64,000 nucleotides of DNA from Escherichia coli. Lineage in GTDB: Bacteria > Pseudomonadota > Gammaproteobacteria > Enterobacterales > Enterobacteriaceae. A program made the position numbers and the translations under genes. Where the stretch lies: NCBI RefSeq assembly GCF_051903065.1, contig NZ_CP178438.1, one strand, 5' to 3'. Shown in pieces: positions 15,108 to 25,570 of the stretch. Numbering within the stretch: position 1 is the first letter of the stretch; each line of letters starts with the position of its first letter. Under the pieces are notes generated by a model. It saw nothing but the letters and a program-made list of their open reading frames with translations. It made no database searches and was not told the DNA's origin.

Positions 15108-15833
15108 ATGCATCGTATAGACACGAAAACCGCGCAGAAGGATAAGTTCGGCGCGGGTAAGAACGGTTTTACCCGTGGTAACCCCCAGACCGGCACGCCT
15201 GCCACCGATCTGGATGATGACTACTTTGACATGTTGCAGGAGGAGCTTTGCAGCGTTGTGGAGGCGTCCGGTGCCAGCCTGGAGAAGGGGCGGCACGACC
15301 AGCTACTTACCGCGCTTCGCGCGCTGCTGTTAAGCCGCAAGAATCCGTTTGGCGATATCAAATCGGATGGCACGGTGAAAACGGCTCTCGAAAACCTTGG
15401 TTTGGGGGAAGGCTCTGCGTTGCCCGTTGGTGTACCTGTTCCGTGGCCCTCAGCCACACCGCCAGCAGGGTGGCTGAAATGTAACGGCGCAGCATTTTCT
15501 TCTGAAATGTACCCCAATCTGGCAAAGGCTTATCCTACAAATAAATTACCGGATTTACGCGGTGAGTTTATTCGTGGCTGGGATGATGGGCGTGGAGTGG
15601 ATAGTGGGCGCGCGTTATTATCAACTCAAACAGATGAATTTAAATCACATAGTCATTATTTCGAAAGAACATGGGCACAAACTGGATTTGATACAACAGG
15701 TGGATATTATCTTTTAGCCGCTGATGTTTCTGGCTCAGTAAATCAACAGAGATCCGATAGCACTAACTCGGTGGGGGGGAGAGAATCTCGCCCTCGTAAT
15801 ATTGCATTTAACTATATTGTGAGAGCTGTGTAA
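15108..15833 (+). CDS. tail fibre protein; constant N-terminus (15108-15397) joined to variable C-terminus inside the invertible segment
   Basis: 241-aa ORF; crossover site lies inside the ORF at 15392-15403; followed by tail fibre assembly gene. Confidence 0.65.
15392..15403. other. left invertase crossover site (AAACC-TT-GGTTT)
   Basis: Dyad-symmetric site resembling gix/cix/hix; inverted copy at 17301-17312. Confidence 0.5.
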
Positions 15834-16435
15834 TGGATAATGCTGTATTAAATAGCGAACATATTGCTACGAAGGCTGGAAATGTTACTGTTTATAACTT
15901 TGACGGTGAAACGCGAGAGTATATTTCCCCATCTATTGAATATATTGCCGTTGGTGTCGGTATTCCGGCATATTCATGTTTAGATGCTCCTGCCACACGT
16001 AAAGATGGTTATGCAATTTGCCGTTCTGCAGATTTTAACTCATGGGAATATGTGCCAGACCATCGCGGTGAAACGGTCTATAGCACTGAAACAGGAGAAT
16101 CAAAAGAAATCACAGCTCCGGGTGATTACCCTGAAAATACAACCACTATCTCCCCATTAACGCCATACGATAAATGGGATGGTGAGAAATGGGTGACCGA
16201 TACTGAAGCACAGCATAGCGCCGCAGTAGACGCGGCAGAAGCACAGCGCCAGTCACTGATTAATGCTGCAATGGCTTCCATTAGTCTGATTCAGCTGAAA
16301 TTACAGGCCGGACGGAAACTGACGCAGGCAGAAACAACCCGGCTTAACGCTGTGCTGGATTACATTGACGCGGTGATGGCAACAGATACCAGCACCGCGC
16401 CGAATGTCATCTGGCCTGAACTGCCGGAGGCGTAG
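15833..16435 (+). CDS. tail fibre assembly protein (current orientation)
   Basis: 200-aa ORF overlapping tail fibre stop; Tfa-like. Confidence 0.6.
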   Translation: MDNAVLNSEHIATKAGNVTVYNFDGETREYISPSIEYIAVGVGIPAYSCLDAPATRKDGYAICRSADFNSWEYVPDHRGETVYSTETGESKEITAPGDYPENTTTISPLTPYDKWDGEKWVTDTEAQHSAAVDAAEAQRQSLINAAMASISLIQLKLQAGRKLTQAETTRLNAVLDYIDAVMATDTSTAPNVIWPELPEA

Positions 16436-16850
16436 GCCATTCAATATCTGGAGCACTGGAGGGATCAACCAGTTCCAGTGCGTCCAGATAATCCAGCCAT
16501 AAATTATATTGTTCCAGCTCGTCACCTTTCAGACGACCAATAGCAGCTTTGCCAGGCCACTGATGGGTATTGATGTAGGTATTGGCTTCTGAAACCAAAG
16601 ATATTTTTTTCATTTCAGCCGTCAATACCTCATCCTCTTTTGAAGGTGGTGGGGAATTAATCCATACTGGCCGTCCTGAACTGTCAGCGCCAATTTCTTT
16701 CCCTTCTGGATGCAGCCCAAGAAATTGCTCATATATTTCTCTGGTAATTTCAATAACATCATCAGGAAGCGTTCCCGCATCCTCATATTCTGGAAATAAT
16801 TCTTGCAGATAAAAACTTTTACTTCCGGGTGAAAAGAATACTGAGTTCAT
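16407..16850 (-). CDS. alternative tail fibre assembly protein (inverted copy)
   Basis: 147-aa ORF on opposite strand, convergent with 15833-16435; C-terminus similar in character (EWPxPP motif). Confidence 0.55.
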   Translation of the reverse strand: MNSVFFSPGSKSFYLQELFPEYEDAGTLPDDVIEITREIYEQFLGLHPEGKEIGADSSGRPVWINSPPPSKEDEVLTAEMKKISLVSEANTYINTHQWPGKAAIGRLKGDELEQYNLWLDYLDALELVDPSSAPDIEWPTPPAVQAR

Positions 16851-16852
16851 TC

Positions 16853-17307
16853 TTACCGTCCAATGATTAACGCTGATACGCTGGTATCTGAAGGAAAGGC
16901 TGCATTCAGTGGTTTGTCGACTTTGAACACAATCGTATTATTCCCCCTGACAGCGGCAAAAGAACAAGCCGCCGTCGCGTATGAACCTGTAATATTACTG
17001 GATACACCACCATAAGCTGTTGTTGATACCAGAGGGATAACGCCCAGCACCTTATTAGGAAATACAAAGGGCAATGTGGCTGTGGCAATATAAGACTTAT
17101 TAGAGCCTGTAATGGCATAAGCATTATCAGTCATTCCATTCATCGCCACTGGACCGCTTATACTTACAGTAACCATCTGAATGATTAGCCCGTCAGGTTG
17201 ACGAATCACAAAATTTCCATTGCCACCAGTAACCGTCCAGAAAGACATATCAGGGATTTGGTTTTCCCCGTTGCCCACATTCCGTTTTGCCGCTTCTCCC
17301 AAACCAA
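16853..17307 (-). CDS. alternative tail fibre variable C-terminal segment (promoterless until inversion)
   Basis: ORF open on minus strand up to the right crossover site; no independent start expected. Confidence 0.5.
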
Positions 17308-17312
17308 CGTTT
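17301..17312. other. right invertase crossover site (AAACC-AA-CGTTT)
   Basis: Inverted repeat of the site at 15392-15403. Confidence 0.5.
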
Positions 17313-17373
17313 ATGAAAATGCAGAAATAACGAGCAAATGGCATCATTCCTGCTTTTGTCAGGGAGATCTACC

Positions 17374-17928
17374 ATGCTTATTGGCTATGTACGTGTGTCA
17401 ACAAATGACCAGAACACAGATCTACAACGTAATGCGCTGAACTGTGCAGGATGCGAGCTGATTTTTGAAGACAAGATAAGCGGTACAAAGTCCGAAAGGC
17501 CGGGACTGAAAAAACTGCTCAGGACATTATCGGCAGGTGACACTCTGGTTGTCTGGAAGCTGGATCGGCTAGGGCGTAGTATGCGGCATCTGGTCATTCT
17601 GGTTGAGGAGTTGCGCGAACGTGGCGTTAATTTTCGCAGCCTGACGGATGCTATTGATACCAGCACACCGATGGGGCGTTTTTTCTTTCATGTGATGGGT
17701 GCCCTGGCTGAAATGGAACGAGAACTGATTGTTGAACGAACAAAAGCTGGACTGGAAGCTGCTCGCGCACAGGGACGAATTGGTGGACGTCGTCCCAAAC
17801 TTACACCAGAACAATGGGCGCAGGCCGGGCGATTAATTGCATCAGGCGTTCCTCGCCAGAAGGTGGCGATCATCTATGATGTTGGTATATCGACACTGTA
17901 TAAGAAGTTTCCGGTCGGAGATAAATGA
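17374..17928 (+). CDS. site-specific DNA invertase, serine recombinase (Pin/Gin/Hin family)
   Basis: N-terminus MLIGYVRVSTNDQNTDLQ with catalytic Ser; AGGGAG RBS; C-terminal HTH; located beside the invertible segment. Confidence 0.9.
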   Translation: MLIGYVRVSTNDQNTDLQRNALNCAGCELIFEDKISGTKSERPGLKKLLRTLSAGDTLVVWKLDRLGRSMRHLVILVEELRERGVNFRSLTDAIDTSTPMGRFFFHVMGALAEMERELIVERTKAGLEAARAQGRIGGRRPKLTPEQWAQAGRLIASGVPRQKVAIIYDVGISTLYKKFPVGDK

Positions 17929-17985: not shown

Positions 17986-18855
<870 letters not shown>

Positions 18856-18946
18856 CTAATCCTTTGAATTTACATAGTAAAAAAGATACTTTTCCTCATA
18901 GTGTGAGCTAATTTTATGTTTCGTTTGATGATCGGACCGGTCTCAA

Positions 18947-18983
18947 AAACCGCAGGCACGTTGTATGCAAGAACGTGCTGTGG
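18947..18983. repeat. repeat B, degenerate copy of repeat A
   Basis: AAACCGCAGGCACGTTGTATGCAAGAACGTGCTGTGG; about 36 of 41 positions match repeat A by hand alignment. Confidence 0.45.
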
Positions 18984-19318
18984 CTGGCTGGTGAACTTCC
19001 AATAGTGCGAATATTGAATGATTTCTATCTGTTATAGATTTTACCGTATTTCGGCATGAATGAAACTGAATATCCTCCCACCGATTCTCCATGACTTTAC
19101 GCCACTGTCTCTAGGGCTGCTATGTGCCAGAGGCGGACGTTGTTAAAATAGAAAATATCCCAACCTTGTATGAGTCGTGCAATAATTTCGAACTTTATAC
19201 AAAGCTTTGGTTGTAAAGGTGTATAACCACAAGTGACATTAATCACATTTGTAAAGGCAAAATGCAACAAACTGAATTAGTTAATTGCGTAAATTTGAAG
19301 TTATGTTAAGGTGGTGAT

Positions 19319-19451
19319 GGTTTATGGGCAGATTTTGGGTCGCGTTTCGCGATCAGTGAAAAAAATGTCCGATAGGATTGCCTTTCAGGATCTCATGTTC
19401 CTCGCATTTCTTAAGGTTCTTGTCAAGTTTGCGTAAGAGTGCCCATAAACC
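19319..19451 (+). ncRNA. candidate retron msr/msd non-coding RNA bounded by a1/a2 inverted repeats
   Basis: Perfect 12-bp inverted repeat GGTTTATGGGCA (19319-19330) / TGCCCATAAACC (19440-19451), the latter 19 nt upstream of the RT start; internal hairpin TCGCG-TTT-CGCGA at 19340-19352. Confidence 0.4.
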
Positions 19452-19470
19452 CTTTTAGAGGCGATCTAAA

Positions 19471-21306
19471 GTGAAACGACTACAATCATTAAAAGAAGCA
19501 AAAACAAAACCAGACTTGGCTAAGCTATTAGGAATCAAACCTTCAGCGTTAACATACTGCCTATATGTATTAAAACCTGAAAATCAATACACACAGTTTA
19601 AGATACCAAAAAAAAATGGCGGCGAACGGATAATAAGTGCACCTAACGGAATATTAAAGACGATACAGTCATCCTTATCAAGACTGCTTCTAGATTGCTT
19701 AGACGAAATAGTTTGCATTAAGTTTCCAGACTCAGAGTTAGCAAGGCAGAAAGCAAAAAACTCAAAAATATTAAAGTTAAAATGTTCCAACTCAGAAATC
19801 AAACAACCCTCACTGTCTCATGGATTTGAAAGAAAGCGTTCAATTATTACAAATGCAATGATGCACTTGGGGAAAAAATATGTTTTTAATATAGACTTGG
19901 ATAATTTTTTCGGCAGTTTTAACTTTGGTAGAGTCCGAGGTTTTTTCATAAAAAATAGAAACTTTGCACTCGATCCGGAAATCGCAACTGTAATTGCTAA
20001 AATTGCGTGCTACAACAATGAACTACCCCAAGGCAGCCCATGCTCCCCAGTAATCACTAATCTAATCACTCACTCGTTAGACATTAAACTGGCAGCGATT
20101 GCATCAAGAAACTCATCCACTTTTACAAGATATGCTGATGATATTACATTCTCTACGAGGAAGGGGGAGTTTCCTTCTGCTATAGCAAAAAATCAAAATG
20201 GTAAATATATCGTTAGTAAGAAAATTAGGGGCGAGATAACTCGCTCAGGTTTTATAATTAATGATGGGAAGACAAGAAATCAGTATAAAGACTCGAGGCA
20301 AGATGTAACAGGCTTAGTGGTTAATAAAAAGCCAAACACGAAAAAAGAATATTGGAGGCTTGTGCGTGCGCAATGTGACCATTTATTTAAACATGGTGAG
20401 TTCTTAGAGGTGATTGACGGCAAGGAAATAAAGGGGAATGTTAATAGCCTTGCAGGCAAACTTAACTTCATAGACCAAGTTGACCACTATAATAGATTGC
20501 GTCAAGGCGAAAAATTAAATCCAAAATATCACTTAAAAAAAGATGCCAATAAAAATGGCCATGCCAAAAAAAGGCGTTACTTACATAGTTCTAGAGAAAA
20601 AACGTTTAGTGAGTTTCTCTTCTATCGTTTATTTTATGGCAATGAATTACCAACAATTCTTACGGAAGGTAAAACTGACAATATTTATCTGAAGGCAGCA
20701 ATACATAAGTTAGCCTCATCATTCCCTAATTTGGCGGTCGCTGAAAGTCCAGGGCTCTCTTATAAGCCACGGACTAAATTTGTTAACTACAATGAGCGGA
20801 CAAAATATTTACTTGAACTTTATGGTGGTGCTGATTATTTAAAGGATTTTGTTATTCATTATAAACAACACTTTAATCGTTATAAGGCTCCCAAACCATC
20901 TAATCCAGTAATTATACTTGTTGATAATGATAGCGGACCAAAAGATCTGATTAATTACGTTAGTAAAGTTGATAATATTGGTATTTTCCCCACAGGTGTT
21001 CCAGATATCCGCGCCTCTGAGTTTGTACATATTTTTTGTAATCTTTATTTAGTGCTTACCCCTCAAGTTAAGGGATATACAGGAACTGATATAGAGCATT
21101 TTTTTAAAGATACAGATCGACTTAGACCACATAAAGGTAAGTTTTTCAATACAGTCTCTAAGCGTGATCATGATAATGATTTGAGCAAGGAATCTTTCGC
21201 AACTCATATTGTTCATGCCCACAAGCATGAAATTGATTTTAGTGGATTTACAAGCCTGTTAGAACGGTTAGTAAAAGTCATAAATCACTTTGACACTGTT
21301 AAGTAA
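19471..21306 (+). CDS. retron-type reverse transcriptase fused to a C-terminal Toprim domain (Retron-Eco2/Ec67-like architecture)
   Basis: 611 aa; NAMMH (NAxxH) at about 128-132, motif A NIDLDNFF, QGSPCSP, YADD at 221-224, VTG at 279-281; C-terminal TEGKTD and DND motifs suggestive of Toprim; GTG start after AGAGG. Confidence 0.8.
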   Translation: MKRLQSLKEAKTKPDLAKLLGIKPSALTYCLYVLKPENQYTQFKIPKKNGGERIISAPNGILKTIQSSLSRLLLDCLDEIVCIKFPDSELARQKAKNSKILKLKCSNSEIKQPSLSHGFERKRSIITNAMMHLGKKYVFNIDLDNFFGSFNFGRVRGFFIKNRNFALDPEIATVIAKIACYNNELPQGSPCSPVITNLITHSLDIKLAAIASRNSSTFTRYADDITFSTRKGEFPSAIAKNQNGKYIVSKKIRGEITRSGFIINDGKTRNQYKDSRQDVTGLVVNKKPNTKKEYWRLVRAQCDHLFKHGEFLEVIDGKEIKGNVNSLAGKLNFIDQVDHYNRLRQGEKLNPKYHLKKDANKNGHAKKRRYLHSSREKTFSEFLFYRLFYGNELPTILTEGKTDNIYLKAAIHKLASSFPNLAVAESPGLSYKPRTKFVNYNERTKYLLELYGGADYLKDFVIHYKQHFNRYKAPKPSNPVIILVDNDSGPKDLINYVSKVDNIGIFPTGVPDIRASEFVHIFCNLYLVLTPQVKGYTGTDIEHFFKDTDRLRPHKGKFFNTVSKRDHDNDLSKESFATHIVHAHKHEIDFSGFTSLLERLVKVINHFDTVK

Positions 21307-21365
21307 TATTATGATGCGCACTGATTATTCCTTATTCAGCTAAAATTTCTGGTAATGACTCCAAC

Positions 21366-22382: not shown

Positions 22383-24071
22383 TCAGTTCAAATCACGACT
22401 CATTTTTTTCGCTCTCACCGGCATCCCATTTGCCACAAAATATCCCGCCGTGCTCCTCGGCAACGCTCCCTGTCCACGAATCATGTCCGCTATTTTCTCG
22501 CCAATCATAATTGTCGTGGCGTTCAAATTCCCGGTGATAATCTGCGGCATAATTGACGCATCCACCACGCGCAGGCCTTCCAGCCCATGCACGCGGCCTT
22601 CGCCGTCAACCACTGCCATCTCGTCATAACCCATTTTGCAGGTACCGCACGGGTGGAAGGCGGTTTCGGCGTGGTTACGCACGAACTCATCGAGTTGCTC
22701 ATCCGTCTGACATTCCGTGCCGGGGCTGATTTCGCGGCCACGATACTGATCCAGCGCCGGTTGATGCATGATCTCGCGGGTGATGCGAATTGCGTCGCGG
22801 AACTCCTGCCAGTCCTGCTCGTGCGACATGTAGTTAAACAGAATCGCCGGATGCTGGTGCGGGTCGCGGGATTTAATCCGCACATGCCCACGGCTTGGCG
22901 AGCGCATCGATCCGACGTGGCACTGGAAGCCGTGCTCTTTCACTGCATTCGAGCCGTTATAGTTAATCGCTACCGGCAGGAAGTGATACTGAATATTCGG
23001 CCACGCAAATTCCTCTCGGCTGCGAATAAATCCGCCTGCTTCAAAGTGGTTGCTGGCACCAACGCCGGTGCCGCCAAACAGCCACTCCGCACCGATTTTC
23101 GGCTGATTCCACCACTGCAGGGCAGGGTAGAGGGAAACCGGTTCTTTGCACTCATATTGCAGATACATCTCCAGATGATCCTGAAGATTTTCACCGACGC
23201 CGGGTAAATCATGCACCAGCGGAATATCAAACTCCGCCAGCAGTTCAGCGCTACCCACGCCGGAACGTTGCAGGATCTGCGGAGAGGCGATCGCACCTGC
23301 ACATAACAGCACCTCTTTATTCGCTGTCGCGCGGGTTGGAATGGTGCTGTCGCCTTCCTGCCACTCGACGCCCACCGCGCGTTTGCCGTCAAAAATGATG
23401 TGATCGGTCATAGCGCGAGTACGAATGGTCAGGTTAGGGCGCGATTTGGCCTGATCGAGATAGCCGCGCGCGGTACTGGCGCGACGGCCCTGCGGCGTGA
23501 CGGTGCGATCCATCGGACCAAAACCTTCCTGCTGATAACCGTTGAGATCGTCCGTGCGCGGGTAGCCCGCCTGCACGCCCGCTTCAATCATCGCTTCAAA
23601 CAGCGGATTGACGCCGGGTTTGGAGGTAGTGACGCTCACCGGGCCATCGCCACCGTGGTAGTCGTTCTCGCCCACATCGCGAGTCTCGGCCTTGCGGTAG
23701 TAGGGCAGGCAGTCGAGATAACTCCAGTTCTCCAGACCGGGTTCTTGCGCCCAGTTATCGAGATCCAGCGCATTGCCACGGATGTAGCACATGCCGTTGA
23801 TCAGCGACGATCCACCCAGACCTTTACCGCGTCCGCACTCCATGCGGCGGTTATTCATAAACGGTTCAGGTTCCGTTTCATAGGCCCAGTTGTAGCGTTT
23901 ACCCTGTAGCGGGAATGCCAGGGCAGCGGGCATCTGGGTGCGGAAGTCAAAGCGATAGTCCGGGCCGCCCGCTTCAAGCAGCAGCACGGAGGTATTCGGA
24001 TCTTCAGTCAGACGGGTAGCGAGAACGTTGCCGGCTGAGCCGGCACCAATAATGATGTAGTCAAATTGCAA
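22383..24071 (-). CDS. betA: choline dehydrogenase
   Basis: Translation matches BetA ([20 protein letters not shown]...); apparent TTG start 5 nt after AGGAGG, because the supplied ORF extends upstream without an in-frame ATG. Confidence 0.9.
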
Positions 24072-24084
24072 ATAAACCTCCTGG

Positions 24085-25557
24085 TTAGAATATGGACTGG
24101 AATTTAGCCATCTCAACCTGGATGGACTTCACCTGGGTGTAACTCTGGAGCGTCATCACGCCGTTCTCGCGACCAATGCCGGAGTGTTTGTAGCCGCCAA
24201 CGGGCATCTCTGCCGGGGATTCGCCCCAGGTGTTGATCCAGCAAATACCCGCTTCCAGCTGATGAATGACGCGATGCGCGCGGTTCAGGTCCGCCGTCAC
24301 GATTCCCGCCGCCAGGCCGTAGTCGGTATCGTTAGCGCGGCGAATGACTTCCTCTTCCGACTCGTAGGTCAGAATGGACATCACCGGCCCGAAGATCTCT
24401 TCACGCACGATGGTCATCTCGTCGCTGCAATCGGTGAACACGGTCGGTGCAACCCATGCGCCGTTATCGAGGCCATCGCCTTTCAGTACATCGCCGCCGC
24501 ACAGTACGCGCGCGCCTTCCTCTTTGCCTTTGGCGATATAGCGCAGCACGTTATCGCGATGCGGGAAGCTGACCAGCGGGCCGAAGTTAGTTTGCGGATC
24601 GAAAACGTCGCCCGCGCGAATGCGCTCAACGCGCGCCAGAATTTTCTGCTCAAATGCGGCTTTGCATTTCGCCGGAACGAAGACGCGGGTGCCATTGGTA
24701 CACACCTGACCGGAGCTGAAGAAGTTTGCCATCATGGCGATATCGGCGGCGAGATCGAGATCCGCATCATCGAAAACGATCAGCGGTGATTTACCGCCCA
24801 GTTCCATGGTCACTTCTTTCAGGGAAGAGGCCGCCGAGTTAGCCATCACTTTTTTGCCGCTGGCGACACCGCCGGTAAATGAAACTTTGGCAATGCCCGG
24901 ATGCTCGGTCAGATATTGCCCGGTCTCCGCGCCCACGCCCGGCAACACGTTAAATACGCCGTCCGGCAGGCCCGCTTCGCTGTAAATTTCAGCCAGCTTT
25001 AACGCGGTAAGCGGGGTGACTTCGCTCGGTTTGAAAATCATTGCGTTGCCTGCCGCCAGCGCCGGGGCGGATTTCCACAGGGCAATCTGGATCGGGTAGT
25101 TCCATGCGCCAATCCCCGCCACCACGCCCAGCGGTTCGCGGCGGGTATAAACAAATGACGTCTCACGCAACGGGATCTGGCTGCCTTCCAGCGCCGGGAT
25201 CAGCCCGGCGTAGTACTCCAGCACGTCCGCACCGGTAACGATATCGACGGTTGAGGTTTCCGAATATGCTTTTCCGGTGTCGAGGGTTTCCAGTTTTGCG
25301 AGTTCGTCATTGCGTTCACGCAGAATATCAACGGCCCGACGCAGAATACGCGAGCGTTCCATAGCGGTCATCGCCGCCCAGATTTTTTGCCCCTGTTGGG
25401 CACTCTTCACGGCGCGATCGACATCCTCACGCCCGGCGGCCTGCACGGTCGCCAGCACGTTACCGTTGGCCGGGTTAATGGTCTCGAAAGTGCGACCGCT
25501 GGTGGCGGAGGTATAACCACCATGTATATAAAGCTGCTGTTCTGCCATTCGGGACAT
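24085..25557 (-). CDS. betB: betaine aldehyde dehydrogenase
   Basis: Translation matches BetB ([15 protein letters not shown]...), aldehyde dehydrogenase family. Confidence 0.9.
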
Positions 25558-25570
25558 CACGTCTCCTCGG

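What the first reader, a model, noticed from the sequence alone, without database searches (positions are those of the whole stretch)
19319..19451. Candidate retron msr/msd ncRNA bounded by a perfect 12-bp a1/a2 inverted repeat upstream of the RT
GGTTTATGGGCA (19319-19330) and its exact reverse complement TGCCCATAAACC (19440-19451) bracket about 109 nt and the downstream copy ends 19 nt before the RT start codon, the geometry expected for retron a1/a2 repeats. A perfect 12-mer inverted pair within about 130 bp is unlikely by chance (rough estimate, not computed exactly). Immediately after a1 there is a short hairpin TCGCG-TTT-CGCGA (19340-19352) as expected for msr; I could not see an obvious long msd stem by eye, so the internal structure is unresolved.
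Basis: seen in the sequence. Interest (0 to 1): 0.7.

Follow-up and report, generated by a model that had tools for sequence, protein, structure and literature searches.

The report
Ec67-family retron non-coding RNA gene

Summary
Confirmed. GGTTTATGGGCA (19319-19330) and TGCCCATAAACC (19440-19451) are a perfect 12-nt inverted repeat that ends 19 nt before a GTG-initiated 611-aa ORF (19471-21306). That ORF is a retron Ec67-family RT-Toprim fusion, type I-C. In 62 of 73 related loci from other bacteria (RT 34-85% identical), an inverted repeat sits at the same place upstream of the RT. Its sequence differs, but every change is compensated. The G after a1 and the AUUU that follows it, the short msr hairpin (also with compensatory changes) and the GCGUARGAG before a2 are conserved too. 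A covariance model built only from 54 distant relatives finds one hit in the 64-kb window: 19319-19451 (+), full length, 110.5 bits. Alignment with the validated Eco2 ncRNA puts the branching G at 19331 and the msDNA template at about 19367-19438, giving an msDNA of about 72 nt. The missing long msd stem is a family trait, since Eco2's own msDNA folds no better than shuffled sequence. The likely mechanism, by homology, is an msDNA-caged Toprim RNase released by phage nucleases. Nothing here is new in kind, and no msDNA has been demonstrated for this particular element.

The parts
19285..19312 (+). Predicted sigma-70 promoter of the ncRNA-RT operon. The -35 is TTGCGT (19285-19290), followed by a 16-nt spacer. 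The extended -10 is TGtTAAGGT (19304-19312). The transcription start is predicted at or just before a1.
   Evidence: Read by eye from the sequence. Relatives have TTGnnn, then 16-17 nt, then TGnTAnnnT ending 6-7 nt before a1. TGnTAnnnT lies within 25 nt upstream of a1 in 25 of 61 loci, against 1.9% of background 27-nt windows. The generic promoter scan did not report this site because its threshold was not reached. This part is inferred.
19319..19330 (+). a1, the 5' arm of the retron inverted repeat (GGUUUAUGGGCA).
   Evidence: Perfect 12-nt inverted repeat. It is conserved in position, and all 12 pairs carry compensatory changes in 54 relatives. It matches model R1 positions 1-11.
19331..19331 (+). 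Predicted branching guanosine, whose 2'-OH primes msDNA synthesis. It is the equivalent of Eco2 rG15.
   Evidence: The AG at the a1 junction is invariant in all 54 relatives. It aligns with the G that follows GGCA in the Eco2 ncRNA. Eco2 rG15 is seen 2',5'-linked to dT1 in cryo-EM (PMC12405507; PMC12916289). The assignment here is by homology only.
19338..19354 (+). msr stem-loop, a 7-bp stem GGUCGCG/CGCGAUC with loop UUU. It is preceded by the single-stranded AUUUUG (19332-19337).
   Evidence: MFE fold. All 6 tested pairs of this helix have compensatory changes and 93.8% of cells are paired in 54 relatives. It corresponds to the single RNA stem-loop rG20-rU42 of Eco2.
19355..19366 (+). Conserved single-stranded msr linker AGUGAAAAAAAU. 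Its last U (19366) aligns with Eco2 rU51, the flipped-out base at which reverse transcription stops.
   Evidence: Conserved GUGA...AAU motif in alignments A2, A3 and A4. The Eco2 termination anatomy comes from PMC12405507. The stacking aromatic residue, Eco2 F46, corresponds to the invariant F43 here.
19367..19438 (-). msd, the template of the predicted msDNA of about 72 nt. The msDNA reads 5'-TCTTACGCAAACTTGACAAGAACCTTAAGAAATGCGAGGAACATGAGATCCTGAAAGGCAATCCTATCGGAC-3' on the - strand. Both ends are uncertain by about 2 nt.
   Evidence: The ends were placed by alignment with the Eco2 ncRNA and msDNA. They are also supported by the sequenced RT-DNA of the close relative 'Retron Terminal 1016' in PMC10849725 supplement 3. 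The central 48 nt are hypervariable among relatives, while both ends (GUCCGAnAGGAUUGCC and UGCGUAAGAG) are conserved. The fold is weak.
19440..19451 (+). a2, the 3' arm of the inverted repeat (UGCCCAUAAACC).
19457..19461 (+). Shine-Dalgarno-like AGAGG, 9 nt before the GTG start of the RT.
   Evidence: Read directly from the sequence. Not tested further.
19471..21306 (+). RT-Toprim fusion protein of 611 aa, retron type I-C. It carries YADD at 221-224, Toprim EGxxD at 399-403 and DxD at 485-487.
   Evidence: ORF. RefSeq product 'retron Ec67 family RNA-directed DNA polymerase/endonuclease'. Family matches from PADLOC, NCBIfam, Pfam RVT_1 and the PDB Eco2 chains. Invariant motif residues.

Best explanation
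The segment 19319-19451 (+) is the msr-msd non-coding RNA gene of a type I-C (Ec67/Eco2-family) retron. Its single protein, an RT-Toprim fusion, is encoded immediately downstream at 19471-21306.

Proposed mechanism, step by step:
1. The ncRNA and the RT are probably transcribed together from an extended -10 promoter at about 19285-19312 (inferred).
2. In the transcript a1 pairs with a2. This is shown by covariation in relatives.
3. That pairing places G19331 next to the 3' end of the template. The RT then primes from the 2'-OH of this G, copies 19438 down to about 19367, and stops at the conserved AAU|G junction. The product would be a branched msDNA of about 72 nt that stays base-paired to the 3' end of the msr RNA. 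All of this step is inferred by base-for-base homology with Eco2.
4. By analogy with Eco2, the msDNA scaffolds a 3:3 RT-Toprim:msDNA trimer that cages the Toprim nuclease. Phage DNA endonucleases (T-even DenB, T5 A1) degrade the msDNA. The freed Toprim cuts tRNAs, shuts down translation and aborts the infection. This step is inferred from the Eco2 literature, and the triggers for this particular element are unknown.
For: - Protein family: NF038237 at 741.9 bits against a cutoff of 450; PADLOC RT-Toprim_I-C at E = 4e-222; PDB Eco2 at E = 6e-137. The YADD, EGxxD and DxD residues are invariant.
- Position of the repeat in relatives: an inverted repeat lies at about -150/-20 relative to the RT start in 22 of 23 loci with RT 46-85% identical. 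With G-U pairs allowed, it is found in 62 of 73 loci down to 34% identity.
- Covariation: a1/a2 is 100% paired and all 12 pairs have both-side changes. All 6 pairs of the msr hairpin have both-side changes. None of 500 shuffles reaches the observed values, and controls slid by 1-3 columns pair at only 29-40%.
- Covariance model: R1, built from 54 relatives whose RTs are at most 54% identical and without the window, gives a single hit in 64 kb on both strands. The hit is 19319-19451 (+), model positions 1-130 of 130, 110.5 bits, E = 1.2e-21.
- Alignment to the published Eco2 ncRNA and to two census retrons. The sequenced RT-DNAs of Eco2 and of 'Terminal 1016' start and end at the homologous positions.
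- The Eco2 anatomy and mechanism come from PMC12405507 and PMC12916289.
- The ncRNA is 100% identical in three E. coli genomes that carry the cassette in different contexts.
Against: - No RNA or msDNA data exist for this element.
- Rfam 15 has no family that matches it.
- The predicted msd has no significant fold. However, the same holds for the validated Eco2 msDNA, at -6.2 kcal/mol and z = 0.05.
- In the census paper the nearest tested relatives gave '0 by PAGE' RT-DNA when over-expressed. 'Terminal 991', with an identical a1 and msr, gave no RT-DNA reads. Abundant msDNA therefore cannot be taken for granted.
- The ends of the ncRNAs in my alignments were chosen by requiring an inverted repeat, so the 100% pairing of a1/a2 is partly by construction. 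The msr hairpin and the covariance-model hit do not depend on that choice.
- The promoter is a weak consensus match that the generic scan missed.
Confidence: 0.93

Rival explanations
1. The inverted repeat only forms a structured 5' UTR or leader that regulates translation or stability of the RT mRNA. No reverse transcription takes place.
For: a2 ends 5 nt before the Shine-Dalgarno-like AGAGG. The 133-nt fold is more stable than shuffled sequence, at -42.5 kcal/mol and z = -3.5. Close relatives gave no RT-DNA band on PAGE.
Against: The region is homologous base for base to the Eco2 ncRNA, whose msDNA is solved in cryo-EM structures. The priming G, the termination motif AAU|G and the template start GAG|a2 are all conserved. 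A relative with the same a1 family, 'Terminal 1016', yields sequenced RT-DNA with the predicted ends. The RT catalytic YADD motif is intact.
Confidence: 0.04
2. This is a decayed or silent retron. The ncRNA and RT sequences are retron-derived, but the element is no longer active. Possible causes are poor promoter activity, or polar or context effects of the IS1 inserted 44 nt downstream.
For: IS1 abuts the cassette at 21351. The promoter match is weak. There are no expression data.
Against: The ORF is full length with all catalytic motifs. The cassette is 99.5-100% identical in 18 complete E. coli genomes, most of which lack the IS1. The ncRNA is identical in three contexts. IS1 lies downstream of the stop codon and outside the shared cassette.
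Confidence: 0.03
3. The inverted repeat is a chance occurrence, the ends of a small mobile element, or a terminator of an upstream gene, and has nothing to do with the RT.
For: Perfect 12-nt inverted repeats occur 5 times in this window. A CUUUU run follows a2.
Against: Only 0.4% of local shuffles produce such a repeat. The repeat co-occurs with the RT gene at a fixed distance in distantly related bacteria, with compensatory changes. No terminator was called there. The covariance-model hit is full length.
Confidence: 0

Closest known systems
Retron-Eco2 (Ec67), type I-C1, E. coli. Structures: PDB 9lm3, 9i2f, 9i2g and 9s1f.
   Same: - Same locus plan: an ncRNA directly upstream of a single RT-Toprim gene.
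- Same ncRNA architecture: a1, the branching G, AUUU, one msr hairpin, an (A/U)-rich linker ending in AAU|G, the msd, GCG(U/A)A(G/A)GAG, then a2.
- Similar size: 133 nt here against about 132 nt, with a predicted msDNA of about 72 nt against 67 nt.
- The YADD motif, the Toprim EGxxD and DxD motifs and the termination aromatic residue (F46 in Eco2, F43 here) are all conserved.
- The msd fold is weak in both.
   Different: - The RT is only a distant relative. The phmmer match splits into two stretches, and the Eco2-like locus L055 shares 42% identity.
- The RT carries an insertion of about 25 aa, residues 85-114, where Eco2 has residues 88-92.
- The a1/a2 sequence differs (GGUUUAUGGGCA against ACGCAUGUAGGCA), and the msd is unrelated in sequence.
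- The genomic context differs. This copy sits next to pin, a tail-fibre invertible segment and PD-T4-3 in a prophage remnant.
- The phage triggers are untested.
'Retron Terminal 991' and 'Retron Terminal 1016' of the experimental retron census (Khan et al., PMC10849725, supplement 3).
   Same: Terminal 991 has the same a1 and an msr that matches up to GUGAAAAAAUGUC except for one fewer A in the A run. Terminal 1016 has the GGCUUAUGGGCA variant of a1 and the same msr and msd end motifs. The published ncRNA boundaries run from a1 to a2, exactly as proposed here.
   Different: The msd sequences differ completely. RT-DNA was '0 by PAGE' for both, no RT-DNA reads were obtained for 991, and a 66-nt RT-DNA was sequenced for 1016. 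The exact ncRNA of the window is not in that supplement, since there was no match to the full a2 plus msd.
Retron types XI (RT-protease) and XII (RT-TIR).
   Same: The RT domains are the next-best matches, with PADLOC E-values of 1e-95 to 3e-97 over the RT domain only.
   Different: The C-terminal effector here is a Toprim domain, not a protease or a TIR domain. The NCBIfam Retron_TIR model scores 282.7 bits against a cutoff of 600.

Membership tests
Retron (msr/msd ncRNA plus RT) | A retron-clade reverse transcriptase is encoded next to the ncRNA, on the same strand. | tested here: met
   NF038237 scores 741.9 bits against a cutoff of 450. The PADLOC retron RT models match. PDB retron RTs match. 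a2 ends 19 nt before the start codon.
Retron (msr/msd ncRNA plus RT) | Terminal inverted repeats a1/a2 pair in the transcript. | tested here: met
   The window has a perfect 12-bp repeat. In 54 relatives all 12 pairs carry compensatory changes, none is broken, and 0 of 500 shuffles reach the observed values. Caveat: the ends of the aligned sequences were chosen by requiring an inverted repeat.
Retron (msr/msd ncRNA plus RT) | A conserved branching guanosine lies at the 3' end of a1. | tested here: met
   G19331 is present. The AG at this junction is invariant in all 54 relatives and aligns with Eco2 rG15. Only sequence conservation was tested, not the priming chemistry.
Retron (msr/msd ncRNA plus RT) | One to three hairpins lie in the msr region. 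| tested here: met
   There is one 7-bp hairpin at 19338-19354. All 6 tested pairs have compensatory changes and 93.8% of cells are paired.
Retron (msr/msd ncRNA plus RT) | The msd region forms a long, stable stem-loop. | tested here: not met
   The msd folds as DNA at -6.8 kcal/mol (z = -1.5) and as RNA at -13.8 kcal/mol (z = -0.4). The 22 clade relatives have only short central hairpins. A putative closing helix, UGC/GCG, has no covariation support. The validated family founder Eco2 fails the same test, at -6.2 kcal/mol and z = 0.05. This generic feature is therefore not discriminating for type I-C.
Retron (msr/msd ncRNA plus RT) | The element produces 2',5'-branched multicopy single-stranded DNA. 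| not testable with these tools
   This needs wet-lab msDNA extraction or RT-DNA sequencing. The only indirect support is the RT-DNA of Eco2 and 'Terminal 1016' in PMC10849725.
Retron type I-C (Ec67/Eco2 family) | The RT is fused at its C-terminus to a Toprim domain with motif IV EGxxD and motif V DxD, and there is no separate effector gene. | tested here: met
   E399-G400-K-T-D403 and D485-N-D487 are invariant in the family alignment. The motif definitions come from Mestre et al., PMC7736814. The match to RT-Toprim_I-C and to Eco2 is full length. The shared cassette 19119-21350 contains only this gene.
Retron type I-C (Ec67/Eco2 family) | The ncRNA has the type I-C consensus sequence and structure. 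| tested here: met
   Covariance model R1, built from 54 type I-C loci without the window, gives one full-length hit at 19319-19451 (+), 110.5 bits, E = 1.2e-21. The region also aligns with the Eco2 ncRNA.
Retron type I-C (Ec67/Eco2 family) | Anti-phage activity depends on the RT, the Toprim domain and the msDNA. | not testable with these tools
   This is known for Eco2 only (PMC12916289 and PMC12405507).
Rfam retron msr family | The sequence matches a curated Rfam covariance model. | tested here: not met
   No retron family was reported for 18800-19800 on either strand, even at E up to 10. Rfam 15 appears not to cover the type I-C ncRNA. This explains why the RNA gene is not annotated in the RefSeq records.

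The most novel reading that the evidence does not exclude
The most novel reading not excluded concerns the RT sub-clade, not the ncRNA. This sub-clade has an insertion of about 25 aa in the fingers region (residues 85-114), an invariant GG(U/C)UUAUGGGCA a1 and a freely swapped msd. It may behave differently from Eco2. Its closest tested relatives gave no RT-DNA visible by PAGE, so it might work with very little or only conditionally made msDNA. The exchangeable msd might also set which phage nuclease or other trigger is sensed.
Probability: 0.1. Interest if true: 0.4.

Novelty: new member of a known kind. Interest (0 to 1): 0.2.

Why it matters
There are three practical gains.

- It adds the missing RNA-gene annotation to a retron whose protein gene RefSeq already names. 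That annotation covers the msr/msd, the branching G and the predicted msDNA of about 72 nt.
- It shows that Rfam lacks a model for type I-C ncRNAs, although a simple covariance model finds them cleanly.
- It defines a compact, self-contained 2.2-kb cassette (19119-21350) that moves between prophage hotspots in E. coli. That cassette could be cloned directly for phage-defence or retron-editing tests.

None of this changes what is understood about retrons.

Tried and rejected
- **Rfam 15 scan** of 18800-19800 at E up to 10. It returned only three chance-level hits (BTnc049, snoZ247, CssrB) and no retron family.
- **Search for a long msd stem.** I used MFE folds of the msd as RNA and as DNA and of 22 relatives. 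None was significant. RNAalifold predicted no msd helix because the centre is hypervariable and does not align.
- **A candidate helix closing the msd,** UGC with GCG, at A3 columns 71-74 and 154-157. It shows no covariation. 276 of 500 shuffles pair as well, and a +2 slide pairs equally well. Rejected.
- **A small hairpin GUCC-NNNN-GGAU** at the 3' end of the template (19367-19378). It is seen by eye and in most DNA folds, but I did not test it formally, so I make no claim for it.
- **Generic sigma-70 scan.** It gave no hit upstream of a1. The promoter proposal rests on manual comparison with relatives.
- **Search for this exact ncRNA or protein accession** in the census supplement and in the Mestre supplements, which are not held as text. 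The exact element was not found.
- **Phage-genome collection.** There is no close copy of the cassette.
- **The 200 nt upstream of a1 (19119-19318).** They show only weak similarity (67%) to the Yersinia similis locus and nothing else conserved.

Full report
**Observation.** The window reads GGTTTATGGGCA at 19319-19330 and TGCCCATAAACC at 19440-19451. These form a perfect 12-nt inverted repeat with 109 nt between the arms. The second arm ends 19 nt before a GTG codon at 19471, which opens a 611-aa ORF running to 19471-21306.

A perfect inverted repeat of 12 nt or more at 40-250 nt spacing arises in 11 of 3000 dinucleotide shuffles of the 352 nt upstream of the ORF. The whole window contains five such repeats. 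The repeat on its own is therefore suggestive and no more.

**The gene downstream.**
- The ORF passes the NCBIfam model 'retron Ec67 family RNA-directed DNA polymerase/endonuclease' at 741.9 bits, against a cutoff of 450.
- It matches the PADLOC RT-Toprim_I-C models end to end at E = 4e-222.
- It matches the solved Retron-Eco2 (Ec67) protein at E = 6e-137.
- It is annotated the same way in RefSeq E. coli genomes.
- The YADD motif (221-224), Toprim motif IV EGxxD (399-403) and motif V DxD (485-487) are invariant in an alignment of 24 family members. These are the type I-C signatures of Mestre et al. (PMC7736814).
- Relative to Eco2, the protein carries an insertion of about 25 residues at 85-114.

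**Comparative evidence for the RNA.** I fetched 80 loci encoding relatives of the RT, with 34-85% identity, from one genome per species.
- In 22 of 23 loci whose RTs are 46-85% identical, the best perfect inverted repeat in the 400 nt upstream lies at the same place, with a1 at about -150 and a2 ending at about -20.
- The repeat sequence drifts: GGCTTATGGGCA, GGCTTACGGGCA, GGCTTATGGGTA, GGCTTATAGGCA, AGCTTACGGGCA, GCTCACATGCA. Both arms change together.
- Allowing G-U pairs and anchoring on the conserved junction motifs, 62 of 73 loci show the same structure.
- In the alignments (A2 with 23 sequences, A3 with 54 sequences and without the window or its close relatives), several features are conserved. 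These are the G after a1, the AUUU(U/G) spacer, a 6-7-bp hairpin, GUGA followed by an A-rich linker ending in AAU|G, and GCG(U/A)A(G/A)GAG just before a2. The centre of the msd is hypervariable.
- On A3, all 12 a1/a2 pairs and all 6 msr-hairpin pairs carry both-side changes, and 97.9% of cells are paired. None of 500 column shuffles reaches the observed values, and partners slid by 1-3 columns pair in only 29-40% of cells.
- One caveat applies. I chose the sequence ends by requiring an inverted repeat, so the perfect score of a1/a2 is partly built in. The msr hairpin is independent of that choice.

**An independent test.** A covariance model built from A3 (130 positions, 20 pairs) was run over the whole 64-kb window on both strands. 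It returned a single hit: 19319-19451 (+), model positions 1-130, 110.5 bits, E = 1.2e-21. These are exactly the coordinates of the finding. Rfam 15 has no family that matches, which is consistent with the RNA gene being absent from the RefSeq feature tables.

**Anatomy by homology with Eco2.** The census of Khan et al. (PMC10849725, supplement 3) prints the Eco2 ncRNA and its RT-DNA, and the window aligns with it base for base. In Eco2, rG15 is the branching nucleotide, rG20-rU42 the single msr stem-loop, rU51 the flipped-out base where synthesis stops, and rG52 the last templated base. The msDNA is 67 nt long (PMC12405507; PMC12916289).

Transferred to the window, this gives:
- branching G at G19331;
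- msr hairpin at 19338-19354;
- stop junction at U19366|G19367;
- first templated base at A19438.

The predicted msDNA is therefore about 72 nt, the reverse complement of 19367-19438. A census retron with the sister a1 (GGCUUAUGGGCA, 'Terminal 1016') yielded a sequenced RT-DNA whose ends fall within 1-2 nt of the homologous positions. Another, 'Terminal 991', shares the window's a1 and an msr that matches except for one fewer A in the A run, but has an unrelated msd. This shows that the msd is exchanged between otherwise matching ncRNAs.

**The msd stem.** The predicted msd folds at -6.8 kcal/mol as DNA (z = -1.5) and at -13.8 kcal/mol as RNA (z = -0.4). The clade relatives have only short central hairpins. 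A candidate closing helix showed no covariation. This does not argue against a retron, because the validated 67-nt Eco2 msDNA folds at -6.2 kcal/mol with z = 0.05. A weak msd fold is a trait of this family.

**Expression signals.** Relatives carry TTGnnn, a 16-17-nt spacer, and an extended -10 TGnTAnnnT ending 6-7 nt before a1. The extended -10 occurs within 25 nt of a1 in 25 of 61 loci, against 1.9% of background windows. The window has TTGCGT (19285-19290) and TGtTAAGGT (19304-19312). This is a weak match that the generic scan did not call. An AGAGG lies 9 nt before the GTG start. These assignments are inferences.

**Mechanism.** Pairing of a1 with a2 is supported by covariation in relatives. 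Priming at G19331, copying of 19438 to 19367 and termination at the AAU|G junction are inferred from homology. The biological role is also inferred from Eco2. There, the msDNA scaffolds a 3:3 RT-Toprim trimer that cages the Toprim nuclease, phage nucleases (DenB, A1) degrade the msDNA, and the released Toprim cuts tRNA and stops translation. Which phages trigger this particular element is unknown.

**Context.** The shared cassette 19119-21350 is 99.5-100% identical in 18 complete E. coli genomes. It sits in at least three different settings:
- next to pin and the GIY-YIG defence gene PD-T4-3, as in the window;
- between DUF977 and hokD in a lambdoid prophage;
- next to a DUF262 gene.

The ncRNA is identical in all three. 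In the window an IS1 abuts the cassette at 21351.

**Verdict.** Both the observation and the interpretation are supported. The element is a typical type I-C retron. Its ncRNA is not annotated and its msDNA has not been shown, but nothing about it departs from the known family. I rate it a new member of a known kind, with low interest.

Noticed in passing
window 17986-18810 (-): The ORF divergent from the retron is a PD-T4-3 anti-phage protein with a GIY-YIG domain. PADLOC gives E = 3e-140, and RefSeq calls it 'LEM-3-like GIY-YIG domain-containing protein'. Two defence genes therefore lie back to back in a prophage variable region.
   Followed up: partly
window 15108-17928: A pin-type DNA invertase (17338-17928, +) lies next to opposed tail-fibre and tail-fibre-assembly ORFs (15108-17347). 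This is the layout of an invertible host-range segment of an e14/P2/Mu-like prophage.
   Followed up: no
window 21351 to about 22118: An IS1 copy starts 44 nt after the RT stop codon, exactly where the cassette shared with other E. coli genomes ends. Most other carriers lack it.
   Followed up: partly
window 19119-21350; L001, L002, L003: The 2.2-kb ncRNA-RT cassette has sharp boundaries and occurs nearly unchanged in three unrelated neighbourhoods in E. coli: the pin/GIY-YIG prophage, a lambdoid prophage between DUF977 and hokD, and beside a DUF262 gene near a Zorya system. How it moves is unclear. I did not look for flanking repeats.
   Followed up: partly
window 19723-19812 (RT residues 85-114): The RT has an insertion of about 25 aa (FPDSELARQKAKNSKILKLKCSNSEIKQPS) where Eco2 has 5 residues. 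It is conserved in relatives with at least about 56% identity. Its function is unknown.
   Followed up: no
PMC10849725 supplement 3, 'Retron Terminal 991', compared with window 19319-19451: A published census retron has the same a1 and an msr that matches the window's except for one fewer A in the A run, but a completely different msd. The msd therefore seems to be swapped as a module between otherwise matching ncRNAs. That relative gave no detectable RT-DNA.
   Followed up: partly
window 18930-18982 (+): A G+C-rich hairpin (GCAGGCACGTTGTATGCAAGAACGTGCTGTG) between PD-T4-3 and the retron cassette weakly resembles the 3' hairpin of the Shigella sRNA CssrB, at 15 bits and E = 2.2, far below the gathering score. 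This is probably a chance match or a terminator-like element.
   Followed up: no
window 22383-25560 (-): Two long ORFs downstream of the IS1 look like the chromosomal betA and betB genes (choline dehydrogenase and betaine-aldehyde dehydrogenase). This rests on my own recognition of the translations and was not tested. If correct, it marks the edge of the prophage island.
   Followed up: no
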